Below, piece after piece: positions 724 through 59,510 of a stretch of 64,000 bases of DNA (its first letter is position 1; every line of letters begins with the position of its first letter). The position numbers were made by a program, and so were the translations under genes. Origin of the DNA: Heterodontus francisci (lineage: Eukaryota); contig NC_090411.1 in assembly GCF_036365525.1 (NCBI RefSeq), forward strand, positions 32,070,432 through 32,134,431, given 5' to 3'. Below the pieces are notes generated by a model, which was not told the DNA's origin, did not search any database, and saw only the letters and a program-made list of their open reading frames with translations.

Positions 724-3525
724 ATGATGGCATCTCAAGTGTGTCAGAACTACCACAAGGACTGTGGAGATGCTGTTAACAAGCAAATCAACCTGGAGCT
801 CTATTCCTCCTATGTTTATCTTTCCATGGTGTGTATTGTTTTCTTGGCGTTCTGTTTCAAAGTTAAGACTGGGATTTCAATGTATTTTGAGTAGCTAGAA
901 TTTCTGTAGGTCTCACAGCTCCAGCGACCTGGGTTCAATTCTGGGTACTGCCTGTGTGGAGTTTGCAAGTTCTCCCTGTGTCTGCGTGGGTTTCCTCCGG
1001 GTGCTCTGGTTTCCTCCCATATGCCAAAGACTTGCTGGTTGATAGGTTAATTGGCCATTATAAATTGCTCCTAGTATAGGTAGGTGGTAGGGAAATATAG
1101 GGACAGGTGGAGATGTGGTAGGAATATGGGATTAGTGTATGATTTAGTATAAATGGGTGGTTGATGGTCAGCACAGACTCTGTAGGTCGAAGGGCCTGTT
1201 TCAGTGCTGTATTTCTAAACTAAAACTAAATATTAATTGGGTTTATAATGTATCTTTCTAGTTCTCCTAGACTTAAATCTGTGAATACCCTTGAAACAGG
1301 GACTCTATTCCTTGCTCTGTAATATTTATGTCCAATTTTGAAAGTAACTCCAGTTCTGTGTAGTTTCCAATAGAGGATTCACGATCATGTATAAACCTAT
1401 TCAACTTGAATGGCAACAATGAAGTTTAGTGACTAGTTAGTGGAACACTGTCTGACTAGTTCTGGTCTGTCTTTCCCCCTTTGTAAATGAGTAAATCCTG
1501 TGGTGCTGAATTCTTTTGTTTGAGTAATGAATTTGCATGAAGCAGTAATTGAAAAGTCTCATTCAGTCCAATAAGACTTTTAGATCACTTGTCTCTTCAT
1601 TGGTGGACGAAGGATGTCCTGCTGATAAATGTAGTTTAAATGCTGAAATGAAACTTGGATCCAAATAGTGTTACTGCTTTTAGTAATGTCACTGGGAGGA
1701 GCATTTCATCATGGTTAGTATTTTACAATATTAACTTGAAAAACCAAGCCCCTTAATTGAAGAAGATTCTTTTGAGATAAAGAATGGATGATTTACTAGG
1801 ATGTTATTTTTAACGTGACCATGAATGATATTTGGGTCTGACCTCTCCCTTTCCATTTTTGCCTCTACCTGCAGTCCTATTACTTTGACCGGGATGATGT
1901 TGCCCTGCGTCACTTTGCTGAGTTCTTCAAGGAGCAGTCACATGAGGAACGGGAGCACGCTGAGAAACTGATGACATTCCAGAATAAACGTGGAGGCCGG
2001 ATCATCTTGGAGGACATCAAGGTTAGATTTAATAAGCCGCTCCCTTCAACAGATTGGACTGCAGTTTCCATTCTATCGGATAAAAGCAAAATACTGCAGA
2101 TGCTGGAAATCTGAAATAAAAACAAGAAATGCTGGAACCACTCAGCAGGTCTGGCAGCATCTGTGAAAAGAGAAGCAGAGTTAATGTTTTGGGTCGGTGA
2201 CCCTCCTTCGGAAATCCGGAATGTTAACTCTGCTTCTCTTTCCACAGATGTTGCCAGACCTGCTGAGTGGTTCCAGCATTTCTTGTTTTTATTTCAGATT
2301 TCCAGCATCTGCAGTATTTTGCTTTCATCCTATGTTCCTTTATTCTAATAATGTCAGTACTCAATCTATCTAGAGTTTAATGAGTAAAATTTCTAGTGTT
2401 GGTGAGTTGGTATGACTGACCTTTGTCTCCTATATTTATAAAATCAATAAATGGATTTTCAGAAGGAACAACGTCTGCTTTGTCAACTATTGGCTGAAAC
2501 ATACAGTGCTTAACTAGGTAACAGTCTTGAGAATGTGGGCCACAGCTGTAGATGTCCCTTAAATGTAGTTGAGGATTATAAAGGAGAAAAAGAAAATTTT
2601 GCATATTTGGGGTAATTGGGATTGGAGCTTTGGCCAAAAATGGCAGTGAACTGATCCAGTGTCCTGTAATGGTCTGTCAACCCAGTGATTAAACCCCATC
2701 CCTCATAGTATTGGGGTGCACAGATTGTCTTTGTTACTGCTAACATTGTTGACCTTGAGCATAACATCCCTTGGACTTTGCACTCCCACTAAAAAGACTA
2801 CTATTCTGTTCCAGAAGCCAGAGCAGGATGAGTGGAGCAATGGTCTGGAGGCAATGCAGAGAGCTCTGCAGATGGAGAAGGATGTGAACCAGAGTCTGCT
2901 GGATCTGCACAAACTCTCCACTGGCAACACTGACCCTCATGTAAGTTAATATTGGAATGAGTTTTCAGGTTTGAAGGTGATGATTAGAATCTACCCTTAA
3001 CTCTGGTAGAATTCCATAAGTTTTTTTTTTGTCTTATTTAAAAAACCAAGACATCCACACTAGATCTTGATCACTGAACAGTTTGCAAGGTACTTGGTTT
3101 CTCTGGCATCAATCTTGACTTGACTCCCAGTTTAATGGAATTGATTTGCCACATGTGGGTAAATTTTGGCCTTGTCTGGCTAAATATATCCACAGAATCT
3201 GAATGATTTCCTTCTGTGCTGACCACTTGGCCCACTGCCTGTGCTTCTTTCTCCAGAGAAAGTCTCGCTCCCATGTGCAGTACTTGTGCTATTATCCCAG
3301 TGCAAATAAAAATCTTATCTAATGAAGATTCTTGCTTTTTTAAGCTAACTATACTCGCCTGTTTCTCTTATGTTCTAGTTGTGTGACTTCCTGGAGACCC
3401 ATTACTTGGATGAGCAAGTGAAGATGATCAAGAAGCTTGGAGATCACATCACCAACCTGAAGAGACTGGGAGCTCCTGACAATGGCATGGGAGAGTACCT
3501 GTTTGACAAGCACACGCTGAGTTAA
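724..3525 (+). CDS. fth1: Ferritin heavy/middle-type subunit, copy 1 (A-type), 174 aa
   Basis: Exons 724-828, 1875-2021, 2815-2940, 3379-3525, all [71 protein letters not shown].../[26 protein letters not shown].../[15 protein letters not shown]...DKHTLS*. Ferroxidase ligands equivalent to human FTH1 E27, Y34, E61, E62, H65, E107, Q141 are present. AATAAA at 3606. The symbol is family-level; orthology (H versus M) is not established. Confidence 0.95.
911..1230 (+). mobile_element. V-SINE (HE1-like), 5'-truncated, in intron 1 of copy 1
   Basis: B-box GGGTTCAATTC, V-domain TGTGTGGAGTTTGCA..TTCTCCCTGTGTCTGCGTGGGTTTCCTCCGGGTG, and a CR1-derived tail GGGCCTGTTTCAGTGCTGTA..CTAAAC. Absent from intron 1 of copies 3, 5, 6 and 8. 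Confidence 0.8.
2078..2330. mobile_element. Penelope terminal-repeat-derived hairpin in intron 2 of copy 1
   Basis: About 110-bp inverted arms (AAAAGCAAAATACTGCAGATGCTGGAAATCTG.../...CAGATTTCCAGCATCTGCAGTATTTTGCTTT). Same sequence family as the end of the GIY-YIG element at 34871. Confidence 0.8.
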
Positions 3526-57447: not shown

Positions 57448-59510
57448 ATGGCTTCTCAAGTGCATCAGAACTACCACAAGGACTGTGAGGATGCTATTAA
57501 CAAGCAGATCAACCTGGAGCTCTATTCCTCCTATGTTTACCTGTCCATGGTGAGTCTTGTGTTTCTTGTCACTGCATTCTGAAAAGTTGGAATTTCTGCA
57601 CTTCAATGAATTGGCTTTAAGCTATATTTCTCTTGACCCTCTTCCCTGGGTGAGGAAACCTCTTGGGTAATGAGAGCTTCAAGTGTGTAAGACAGGGTAA
57701 TGTTGAGTTAATGGACTGCATGTTTCAGCAACTGTTCTCTATTGAGAGTTTTGATATTTGAAACTAACTTAACCACTACCTGAGTTTATAAACTGATGAG
57801 CACAAACCTGGTCAATGTTGTGTTAACATTAAACAAAGCTCAATCTCAAACTGGTAACTGTAACTGGTAAAATATTGGTAGGTCCTTATTTGCTTACTTT
57901 TTTTAGTTGGAAGTGATACACTAAGAATCCTGGAGTTGAAGCCATGTTCACTGCTTGGATTCCTATTTTATTTGTGCAAAAGATGAAGTAAGGATTTTTT
58001 TTTTCTATAGTTCCACACCCAATTTTATTTAGAAATGTATGTAACCAATTGATTCTATGCTGCCTCAATGTTGCAAAGTACTCTTGAAGTTTAGTTCTCA
58101 CTGTAATGTAGGGAACAAATAGCCACTTTATGCACAGTAAGCTCCTGGCAATTGAAATGACTAGATTGTCGGTTGGCTGAAGGATAAATATTGGCCAGGA
58201 CATTGGAGGGAACTCCCCTGTTCTTTGAAATAGTGCTGAGATATGTATCTGAAGAGGACAGATGGGGTCCCTTGGTCTAATTTTACTTTTTTAGTAAAAA
58301 GGTACTAATCCAGCACTAGATTTTAGTCTGACTTTGAGAAATGCATCTAACCTTTTTTTGGCTGAGTCCTATATGAGCATTGGATAGCTCCTCCCTCAAT
58401 TAGTGAATAAATGGTTTCCACTTTTTGAAAGAACTGAGGAAAATATAAATTTTATATTAAATTCTCTCCACAGTCCTATTACTTTGACCGGGATGATGTT
58501 GCCCTGCGTCACTTTGCTGAGTTCTTCAAGGAGCAGTCACATGAGGAACGGGAGCATGCTGAGAAACTGATGAAATTCCAGAATAAACGTGGAGGCCGGA
58601 TCATCTTGGAGGACATCAAGGTTGGATTCAATGAATGATTGGCCTCCTGTCTGGATCCCCTTGGACTGATTGCTCTAGAAAGCATTTGAAAGAATAGTTC
58701 AAAATTGATTTCTATGGATGTGGTGATTTAATGCAGTAAACCTATATTGTGATGTGTTGGCTCCTGCTAACATGGGACTTCTGGTTGCTTGTTCTCCTGT
58801 TTCCATTGTATTTGTATATCTTGCTTAATCCATTTATAAGTGAACTGTTTGTTTGACTTTCCAGAAGCCAGAGCAGGATGAGTGGAGCAATGGTCTGGAG
58901 GCAATGCAGAGAGCTCTGCAGATGGAGAAGGATGTGAACCAGAGTCTGCTGGATCTGCACAAACTCTCCACTGGCAACACTGACCCTCATGTAAGTTCTT
59001 TTAATGTGGGCTTTTTGGATAAATTGGAGTTCATGGGTCTTTGCAGTAGTCCTTGGACACAGATACTGTAAAATCTCATTAGGTTTGTATATTTTATTTT
59101 TGGACAGACTGCAGACTTCCAACTGGGAGGTAAGTCTAATATGGCTATTAACTAAATGTGTCCTTGTGATCAAGTAACTTGCTCTGCAGTAACTGAACTT
59201 ACTGACAGACTAGAGGGGCAATCAAGATTGCTAACATTACTATCATCCCGTCCAAGACAATTGAAATCCTACAGTCAAAGGGAAGCTCAAACATTCCTTG
59301 GTATCTGCTGATGGACATAACTAGTTTTTTTTTTCTCTACCTCCACCTCCCTAGTTGTGTGACTTCCTGGAGACTCACTACTTGGATGAGCAAGTGAAGA
59401 TGATCAAGAAGCTTGGAGATCACATCACCAACCTGAAGAGACTGGGAGCCCCTGACAATGGCATGGGAGAGTACCTGTTTGACAAGCACACGCTTGGGGA
59501 GTGTGACTGA
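57448..59510 (+). CDS. fth1: Ferritin copy 11 (divergent introns), 176 aa
   Basis: Exons 57448-57549, 58474-58620, 58865-58990, 59355-59510; [19 protein letters not shown]...; ends HTLGECD*; TATAAATA at 57372. Confidence 0.95.
58085..58280 (-). mobile_element. DeuSINE-like (SacSINE1-type) fragment in intron 1 of copy 11
   Basis: GGATAAATATTGGCCAGGACA..GGGAACTCCCCTGTTCTTTGAAATAGTGC resembles the reverse complement of the Deu domain, compared from memory. Confidence 0.5.

What the first reader, a model, noticed from the sequence alone, without database searches (positions are those of the whole stretch)
724..59510. Large tandem ferritin array (at least 11 loci) that probably extends beyond both ends of the window
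Seen: 11 co-oriented ferritin loci in 59 kb, nine intact with ferroxidase ligands, ordered A-Bpsi-C / A-(B lost)-C / A-B / A-B / half / E. The window opens mid-unit, and a third copy of the upstream module that precedes copies 10 and 11 lies at about 60000-61417, predicting a 12th locus beyond the Tx1 insertion. Established: mammals rely on single FTH1 and FTL genes, although ferritin expansions are known in some fishes. Inference: dosage amplification for very high ferritin output in a specific tissue or stage.
Basis: partly seen in the sequence, partly recalled or inferred. Interest (0 to 1): 0.75.

Follow-up and report, generated by a model that had tools for sequence, protein, structure and literature searches.

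The report
Shark ferritin array with homogenised exons
This is a stretch of a large run of iron-storage (ferritin) gene copies of a kind already described in sharks; its copies lack the usual iron-sensing switch and keep nearly identical coding pieces while their introns drift apart, most likely because the copies overwrite one another.

Summary
In detail: 11 co-oriented loci, nine open four-exon genes, one with an early stop, one holding only exons 3-4. All ten four-exon copies carry the six ferroxidase and two nucleation residues at the positions given for salmon ferritins. The expansion is not new. Two Greenland shark genome papers report tandem ferritin clusters across sharks (59 FTH1b copies, five with only exons 3-4; ovary-specific expression in the other paper). 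Membership of FTH1b is likely but was not tested by a tree. Added here: (1) concerted evolution. Copy 11's introns do not align to most copies, yet its exon 3 is identical in 7 of 9. An intron-2 tract is homogenised, and one exon-2 site is fixed differently between two species' copies. DNA-level gene conversion fits best. (2) No iron-responsive element; a TATA-like box lies 70-84 nt before the ATG, so control is probably transcriptional. (3) The half copy keeps a promoter and an 81-codon frame. Expression, tissue and the 12th locus are untested; false duplication of unit 2 is unlikely but not excluded.

The parts
651..3525 (+). Copy 1 (A type), open. TATA-like 651; exons 724-828, 1875-2021, 2815-2940, 3379-3525
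5612..7664 (+). Copy 2 (B type), pseudogene: stop at codon 6 and 10-12.5 non-synonymous differences from other copies; intron 2 resembles copy 11. Exons 5695-5796, 6664-6810, 7020-7145, 7518-7664
11340..14037 (+). Copy 3 (C type), open. Exons 11413-11517, 12636-12782, 13315-13440, 13891-14037
18149..21004 (+). Copy 4 (A type, sister of copy 1), open. Exons 18222-18326, 19353-19499, 20295-20420, 20858-21004; the end of exon 4 shares a two-site variant with copy 2
22256..22581 (-). Inverted remnant of a B-type intron 1 (97% to 6340-6670) where unit 2 lost its B copy; short microhomology at both joints
24768..27089 (+). Copy 5 (C type, sister of copy 3), open. Exons 24841-24945, 25702-25848, 26374-26499, 26943-27089
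31124..33595 (+). Copy 6 (A-like), open. Exons 31197-31301, 32047-32193, 32897-33022, 33449-33595
37242..40476 (+). Copy 7 (B type), open. Exons 37326-37427, 39154-39300, 39835-39960, 40330-40476; 3' end of intron 2 is A-type and the start of the 3' UTR matches copy 6
43654..45952 (+). Copy 8 (A-like), open. Exons 43724-43828, 44562-44708, 45239-45364, 45806-45952
48084..50467 (+). Copy 9 (B type), open, with a longer C-terminus like copies 10 and 11. Exons 48168-48269, 49157-49303, 49820-49945, 50315-50467
51086..53161 (.). Upstream module, first copy (before copy 10); non-coding, function not determined
54036..54678 (+). Copy 10, half gene: TATA-like 54036, in-frame ATG-ATG at 54103, exon 3 remnant to 54192, exon 4 54523-54678; 81-codon open frame; no AATAAA/ATTAAA in the next 400 nt
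56061..57067 (.). Upstream module, second copy (before copy 11)
57372..59510 (+). Copy 11 (E type), open. Exons 57448-57549, 58474-58620, 58865-58990, 59355-59510; introns unalignable to most other copies
60145..61417 (.). Upstream module, third copy, with no ferritin after it inside the window
61456..64000 (-). Retroelement with a 629-aa reverse-transcriptase frame (62110-63999), running off the window; interrupts the third module
   Evidence: Pfam RVT_1, E 8.4e-38

Best explanation
This is a segment of the shark tandem ferritin (probably FTH1b) cluster. SHOWN: each intact copy is a four-exon gene whose product has the ferroxidase and nucleation residues; all 11 copies share a proximal promoter of about 150 nt with CCAAT-like boxes and a TATA-like box; there is no iron-responsive element; exons are far more alike than introns, with mosaic tracts. 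INFERRED: (a) the array grew by unequal crossing-over of multi-gene units and loses copies by deletion; (b) old intron lineages persist while ectopic DNA-to-DNA gene conversion, which can only start where homology remains (exons, promoter, some introns), keeps the coding sequence uniform, helped by purifying selection, so that any mix of subunits co-assembles into one 24-mer; (c) without an IRE, output is set by promoter activity times copy number rather than by cytosolic iron, which suits bulk loading of ferritin in one cell type, most likely the oocyte, as reported for the Greenland shark cluster.
For: Residues E24, E58, E59, H62, E104, Q138 and E54, E61 in 10 of 10 four-exon copies, the positions listed for salmon ferritins. 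Synonymous divergence 0.049-0.146 over 45 pairs, while copy 11's introns give no blastn match in 26 of 27 comparisons. Exon 3: 2 synonymous changes in 25.7 sites against 19.5-32.5 expected from intron-3 trees. Intron 2 of copies 1 and 3 differs at 15 of 478 sites, intron 3 at 67 of 430. Informative sites cluster: 219 of 244 neighbours compatible, permutation mean 204, p 0.0008. Half copy: exon 3 remnant 9 of 88 differences, exon 4 2 of 132 from copies 3 and 11, Fisher p 0.008. Site 58585 is A in 10 of 10 window copies but C in all 13 contigs of organism D laid there, although D also holds copy-11-type intron 2 starts. No Rfam match at gathering score and no IRE at E up to 1 in 64 kb; no IRE loop in 11 of 11 TATA-to-ATG stretches. 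Published clusters.
Against: No homologue search or tree was run, so FTH1b identity and the shark origin rest on resemblance to the papers and on recalled repeat types. The tissue is borrowed from another species and one sentence of a preprint; the other paper found some copies expressed in fin and blood. Exon 3 was picked after seeing the data; with synonymous sites evolving at a third of the intron rate and the shorter tree its deficit is marginal (p 0.045). The coding tree still follows the intron groups loosely, mainly through exon 1. The cross-species signal rests on one site among 40 shown of 1644. GC at fourfold sites (0.50-0.60 against 0.36-0.41 in introns) fits codon bias as well as biased conversion. 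The transcription start is inferred from the TATA-like box. No positive control was run for the IRE scan.
Confidence: 0.62

Rival explanations
1. Birth-and-death evolution under strong purifying selection, including selection on synonymous codons, with little or no conversion between old copies.
For: pN is low (0.007-0.021 among intact copies); promoters are also conserved; fourfold sites are GC-richer than introns; the coding tree loosely follows intron groups.
Against: Cannot explain the homogenised intron-2 tract, the mosaic introns and UTRs of copies 2, 7 and 9, the near-identical exon 4 in a truncated copy, or the site fixed differently in organism D.
Confidence: 0.13
2. Exons are homogenised through reverse-transcribed mRNA in the germ line (RNA-templated conversion), using the abundant retroelement reverse transcriptases.
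For: Between distant types identity ends within about 3-8 nt of the splice sites; exon 1 is less uniform than exons 2-4, as 3'-primed cDNA would give; a reverse-transcriptase element lies beside the array.
Against: Converted tracts include intron and promoter DNA; no copy has lost an intron (10 of 10 keep three); 3' UTRs are not uniform across types; homology-limited DNA conversion predicts the same exon borders.
Confidence: 0.07
3. Same array and same evolution, but the function is somatic protection against iron-driven lipid peroxidation (ferroptosis), as proposed for the Greenland shark, not oocyte loading.
For: Yang et al. 2026 report some copies transcribed in fin and blood and argue for a link to polyunsaturated lipids; snailfish fthl27 lowers ROS in cells. 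One contig of a run guessed to be RNA covers exon 2 of copy 11 with 3 differences in 146 nt and stops at the exon borders; its tissue is unknown.
Against: Sahm et al. report ovary-specific expression of the largest cluster. An antioxidant-response-like motif was found in only 1 of 11 proximal promoters. Yang et al. sampled only fin and blood.
Confidence: 0.2
4. Units 1 and 2 are two haplotypes joined in tandem by the assembler, so the true count here is about nine loci.
For: The units are 92-96% identical. In run X1, 500-700-nt contigs matching the window lie at depth 15-17 while other contigs at 33-39 differ from it at fixed sites, a hint that haplotypes in this region can differ appreciably.
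Against: 143 mismatches and 21 gap openings in 4803 columns, 239 mismatches in 5314, plus a deletion-inversion; no N in the window; the copy 3 to copy 4 spacer is the same kind of junction as copy 5 to copy 6. The other copies differ by 10% or more in introns and are not explained this way.
Confidence: 0.08

Closest known systems
Shark FTH1b tandem clusters (Yang et al. 2026 PNAS, PMC13214024; passages and a term search of supplements seen)
   Same: Tandem four-exon ferritin genes; increased copy number across sharks; five Greenland shark copies hold only exons 3 and 4, like copy 10 here.
   Different: The main text has no occurrence of 'gene conversion', 'concerted', 'iron-responsive' or 'ovary'. 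Orthology of this window to that cluster was not tested.
Greenland and white shark ferritin clusters (Sahm et al., bioRxiv 10.1101/2024.09.09.611499; passages seen, supplements closed)
   Same: Very large clustered expansion (155 FTL-like and 179 FTH1-like hits), syntenic between distant sharks, mostly full length, ovary-specific.
   Different: Treated as ancient duplications; no mention of conversion, concerted evolution or iron regulation in the main text. The window's uniform protein suggests the two counts may be the same loci hit twice (my inference).
Teleost M and H ferritins (salmon, PMC4117605; passages seen)
   Same: Four exons, the six ferroxidase residues and nucleation residues E54 and E61 at the same positions, so it should work like an M subunit.
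   Different: All five salmon isoforms have a 5' IRE; these copies have none. The paper calls teleost M orthologous to mammalian L, so the residue pattern does not give orthology.
Hadal snailfish fthl27 tandem expansion (PMC10746142; passages seen)
   Same: Tandem ferritin-heavy-like copies read as dosage amplification.
   Different: Recent, 14 copies, expressed in most tissues; here the intron lineages are old and partly shared with another species.
Mammalian FTHL17 family (PMC7760355 and PMC2724270; passages seen)
   Same: Germ-line ferritin paralogues in a cluster, with some evidence of conversion (tree-based; GENECONV negative).
   Different: FTHL17 lacks ferroxidase activity (Glu62 to Lys); these copies keep every ligand.

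Membership tests
Vertebrate cytosolic ferritin gene | Four exons and three introns with GT/AG sites | tested here: met
   10 of 10 full copies, 60 of 60 sites; structure stated for vertebrate ferritins
Vertebrate cytosolic ferritin gene | Ferritin domain by profile or homologue search | not tested
   No profile, homologue or structure search of the ferritin protein was run; the name rests on residue positions, gene structure and recall
H-type (ferroxidase) subunit | E24, E58, E59, H62, E104, Q138 | tested here: met
   10 of 10 four-exon copies, numbering
M-type subunit (works like) | Ferroxidase residues plus nucleation residues E54 and E61 | tested here: met
   10 of 10
Canonical iron-regulated H, M or L ferritin | IRE stem-loop in the 5' UTR | tested here: not met
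   No Rfam IRE match in 64 kb; no loop motif in 11 of 11 leaders; 4 of 32 loop motifs in the window have 4 of 5 stem pairs, all at least 509 nt before the next ATG and upstream of the TATA-like boxes. The true 5' end is inferred.
Shark FTH1b cluster | Tandem cluster of near-identical copies including exon 3-4-only genes | tested here: met
   against the description
Shark FTH1b cluster | Phylogenetic placement with FTH1b rather than FTH1a or FTL | not tested
   No outside ferritin sequences were obtained
Shark FTH1b cluster | Conserved flanking genes (synteny) | not testable with these tools
   No genome held; no flanking gene was recognised in the window
Shark FTH1b cluster | Ovary-enriched expression | not testable with these tools
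   Only contigs of runs with no tissue record were available
Concertedly evolving gene family | Paralogues share species-specific variants across older lineages | tested here: inconclusive
   One supporting site (58585) of the 40 rows shown of 1644; within-window tests support conversion
FTHL17-like ferroxidase-dead germ-line ferritin | Loss of a ferroxidase glutamate | tested here: not met
   All ligands kept; FTHL17 described

The most novel reading that the evidence does not exclude
The exon 3-4-only copy is not debris but an expressed half-ferritin. It keeps the shared promoter, has an in-frame ATG-ATG 67 nt after the TATA-like box (70-84 nt in full copies), intact splice sites and an 81-codon frame covering the C-terminal half with E104 and Q138 kept and the three-fold-channel D128 changed to His. 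Five exon 3-4-only genes are reported in the Greenland shark cluster. If these are one conserved gene type, shark oocytes would make a two-helix subunit that modifies or caps an IRE-free, concertedly evolving maternal ferritin. Against it: no poly(A) hexamer within 400 nt, five amino-acid changes in the aligned part besides the new start, and 5'-truncated gene models are a common annotation outcome.
Probability: 0.08. Interest if true: 0.75.

Novelty: new member of a known kind. Interest (0 to 1): 0.4.

Why it matters
The array itself is expected in a shark. The additions matter for how the published expansion is read. If conversion keeps the exons uniform, coding-sequence trees and Ks values cannot date these duplications or assign orthologues, and short reads cannot tell copies apart; introns must be used. 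If the copies lack an IRE and are ovary-expressed, the expansion is more likely about provisioning eggs than about longevity or ferroptosis, which is directly testable with existing shark genomes and multi-tissue RNA-seq.

Tried and rejected
No whole genome is held, so flanks and the 12th locus could not be read. The run search listed no holder on record as RNA; this is no evidence on expression. Contig depths are far higher over exons than over unique stretches in X1 and X9, which hints at tens of copies or more, but the tool states that depth is no copy number, so no count is given. In X8 the deep contigs over exons 2 and 4 appear to belong to another ferritin (record 20: 15 differences in 143 nt and a different C-terminal end), and no X8 contig lay on the half copy; neither was used to rank expression. 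The single lay covered 43000-61450 only, was swamped by repeats, and showed 40 of 1644 difference rows. The exon-4 comparison for copy 10 was one base out of register and was redone. I first read site 58585 as codon 68; one search shows it is codon 72. The mir-4654 match (E 0.12, 29 bits against a cut-off of 87) is chance. A cytoplasmic-polyadenylation-like motif occurred in only 2 of 11 3' regions, so it gives no support for maternal mRNA control. A paper search for oocyte CCAAT promoters in tandem zona pellucida genes found nothing, so that analogy is recall only. Searches for prior reports; none of the listings or passages seen describes conversion or IRE loss in shark ferritin clusters, but subscription papers and the preprint's supplements were not visible. 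The scan's own index gave nothing relevant.
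Full report
Observation. The window has no N and about 40% GC, and self-alignment shows long tandem similarity over 1-59500. Using copy 1's exons as queries gives 10, 10, 11 and 11 hits for exons 1-4. Ten loci have four exons with 60 of 60 GT/AG sites; nine are open and copy 2 stops at codon 6. Copy 10 has only the end of exon 3 and exon 4. Coding sequences differ by 9-27 of 513 nt.

What the protein is. All ten four-exon copies have E24, E58, E59, H62, E104 and Q138, and also E54 and E61. 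These are the ferroxidase and nucleation positions given for salmon ferritins, which share the four-exon layout (PMC4117605, passages). The product should therefore work like an M-type subunit, able both to oxidise and to nucleate iron. No database search or tree was run on the protein, so the name and the subtype rest on these positions, the gene structure and recall. The shark origin is inferred from recalled repeat types and the match to the papers below, not from a call.

What is already known. Sahm et al. (bioRxiv 10.1101/2024.09.09.611499, passages) report 155 FTL-like and 179 FTH1-like copies in the Greenland shark, about 80% in three clusters syntenic with the white shark, the largest expressed specifically in ovary. 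Yang et al. (PMC13214024, passages and a term search of supplements) report 59 FTH1b copies in two tandem clusters, raised numbers across sharks, five copies with only exons 3 and 4, and some expression in fin and blood. The array is therefore a new member of a described kind. Term searches of both main texts found no mention of conversion or concerted evolution; 'iron' does not occur in the first and 'iron-responsive' does not occur in the second. The preprint's supplements are closed and figures were not visible, and these may bear on the claim.

Exons are uniform, introns are not. Synonymous divergence over 45 pairs is 0.049-0.146. Introns of the alignable A/C lineages differ at 12.5-15.4% of aligned sites, A/C against B align only in part, and copy 11's introns give no match in 26 of 27 comparisons. 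Exon 3 of copy 11 is nevertheless identical in 7 of 9 other copies and one base away in 2, with identity ending about 3-8 nt into the introns. Exon 3 carries 2 synonymous changes in 25.7 sites; intron-3 trees of copies 1-9 predict 19.5-32.5 (P 7e-7 or less), and 6.4-10.7 if synonymous sites change at a third of the intron rate (P 0.045-0.0015). Exon 3 was chosen after seeing the data; exons 1, 2 and 4 carry 8, 6 and 8 changes in 19, 30 and 28 sites.

Evidence that this is conversion. (i) Intron 2 of copies 1 and 3 differs at 15 of 478 sites while intron 3 differs at 67 of 430 and intron 1 at about 18%; in the six alignable copies incompatible site patterns come in runs (219 of 244 neighbours compatible, permutation mean 204, p 0.0008). 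(ii) Copy 2 has B-type introns 1 and 3 but a copy-11-like intron 2; copies 7 and 9 have an A-type 3' end of intron 2; copy 7's 3' UTR starts like copy 6's. (iii) The truncated copy 10 differs from copies 3 and 11 at 9 of 88 sites in its exon 3 remnant but 2 of 132 in exon 4 (Fisher p 0.008). (iv) Site 58585 (codon 72) is A in 10 of 10 window copies and in all but one contig of run X1 (43.6 of 1311.7 depth), but C in all 13 contigs of organism D laid there; D also holds copy-11-type intron 2 starts. So an intron lineage appears older than the species split while this exon site is species-specific. This is one site among 40 rows shown of 1644, some D contigs may be single-copy ferritins, and X1 may be the sample behind the window. 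Because tracts include intron and promoter DNA and no intron has been lost, DNA-to-DNA conversion is preferred to a cDNA template. Against: the coding tree still loosely follows intron groups, and GC at fourfold sites fits codon bias equally well.

Regulation. All 11 loci, including the half copy, share a proximal block of about 150 nt with CCAAT-like boxes, a TGATGTC element about 39 nt upstream and a TATA-like box 70-84 nt before the ATG of full copies. The implied leader is about 45-60 nt and weakly folded. Rfam finds no IRE in the window at either threshold, none of 11 leaders has the loop motif, and the 4 of 32 loop motifs with a partial stem lie at least 509 nt before the next ATG. Salmon H and M isoforms all have an IRE. 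The start site is inferred and no positive control was run. I infer that output depends on transcription and copy number, not on cytosolic iron. The oocyte is the likeliest site, and from abundant ferritin transcripts in zebrafish follicles (PMC1488847, passages); somatic antioxidant use remains a live rival.

Array structure and assembly. Units 1 and 2 are 92-96% identical with 143 mismatches in 4803 columns and 239 in 5314, and unit 2 lost its B copy through a deletion that left a 326-nt inverted intron remnant. Six of the 8 X1 pieces listed over 43000-61450 match the window with 0-3 differences in 435-634 nt, the other two with 4 and 10. Base 1 lies inside a spacer repeated before copies 4, 6 and 8, and a third upstream module at 60145-61417 is cut by a reverse-transcriptase element. 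Both fit a larger array, but neither extension can be checked.

Half copy. Copy 10 has the promoter, an in-frame ATG-ATG 67 nt after the TATA-like box, good splice sites and an 81-codon frame, but no poly(A) hexamer within 400 nt. It is most likely a decaying remnant whose exon 4 was recently converted. The recurrence of exon 3-4-only genes in the Greenland shark leaves a small chance of a conserved half-ferritin.

Verdict. Real, correctly described, and a member of a published kind of shark ferritin cluster. The conversion pattern and the missing IRE were not found in the papers and searches named above and change how the expansion should be dated and interpreted. Interest 0.4.

Noticed in passing
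window 22256-22581: Deletion with a templated inversion: a 326-nt piece of B-type intron 1 sits reversed at the point where unit 2 lost its B copy, with short microhomology at both joints.
   Followed up: partly
window 51086-53161, 56061-57067, 60145-61417: A non-coding module precedes copies 10, 11 and the predicted 12th but not copies 1-9. Organism D contigs match parts of it at 82-83%, so it is old and possibly regulatory.
   Followed up: partly
window about 906-1230 and 18360-18700; 2075-2333 and 19553-19811: Insertions shared only by copies 1 and 4: a SINE-like element in intron 1 and a self-complementary repeat in intron 2 (types recalled, not tested). Useful markers of the unit 1-2 duplication.
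   Followed up: no
window about 140-470 and the same place upstream of copies 2-9: A high-copy repeat remnant (CR1-like by recall; very deep in all four runs in the 43000-43615 bin) abuts the promoter of A, B and C copies and is highly conserved within types; copies 10 and 11 lack it.
   Followed up: no
window 37990-38849: An insertion of about 860 nt in intron 1 of copy 7 only, richer in GC than its surroundings.
   Followed up: no
window 50459-50467, 54655-54678, 59496-59510: Copies 9, 10 and 11 have longer C-termini and different 3' UTRs from copies 1-8; copy 9 is B-type elsewhere, so its 3' end looks recombined.
   Followed up: partly
run X8 record 20 and the single contig with C at 58585 in X1 and X8: A distinct ferritin about 90% alike in exon 4 with a different C-terminal end is present; probably the ordinary single-copy gene.
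   Followed up: no
window 46687, 48925, 49309-49358, 51407, 57363: All X1 depth differs from the window at these sites although X1 is the best DNA holder: another individual, divergent haplotypes or errors in the window.
   Followed up: no
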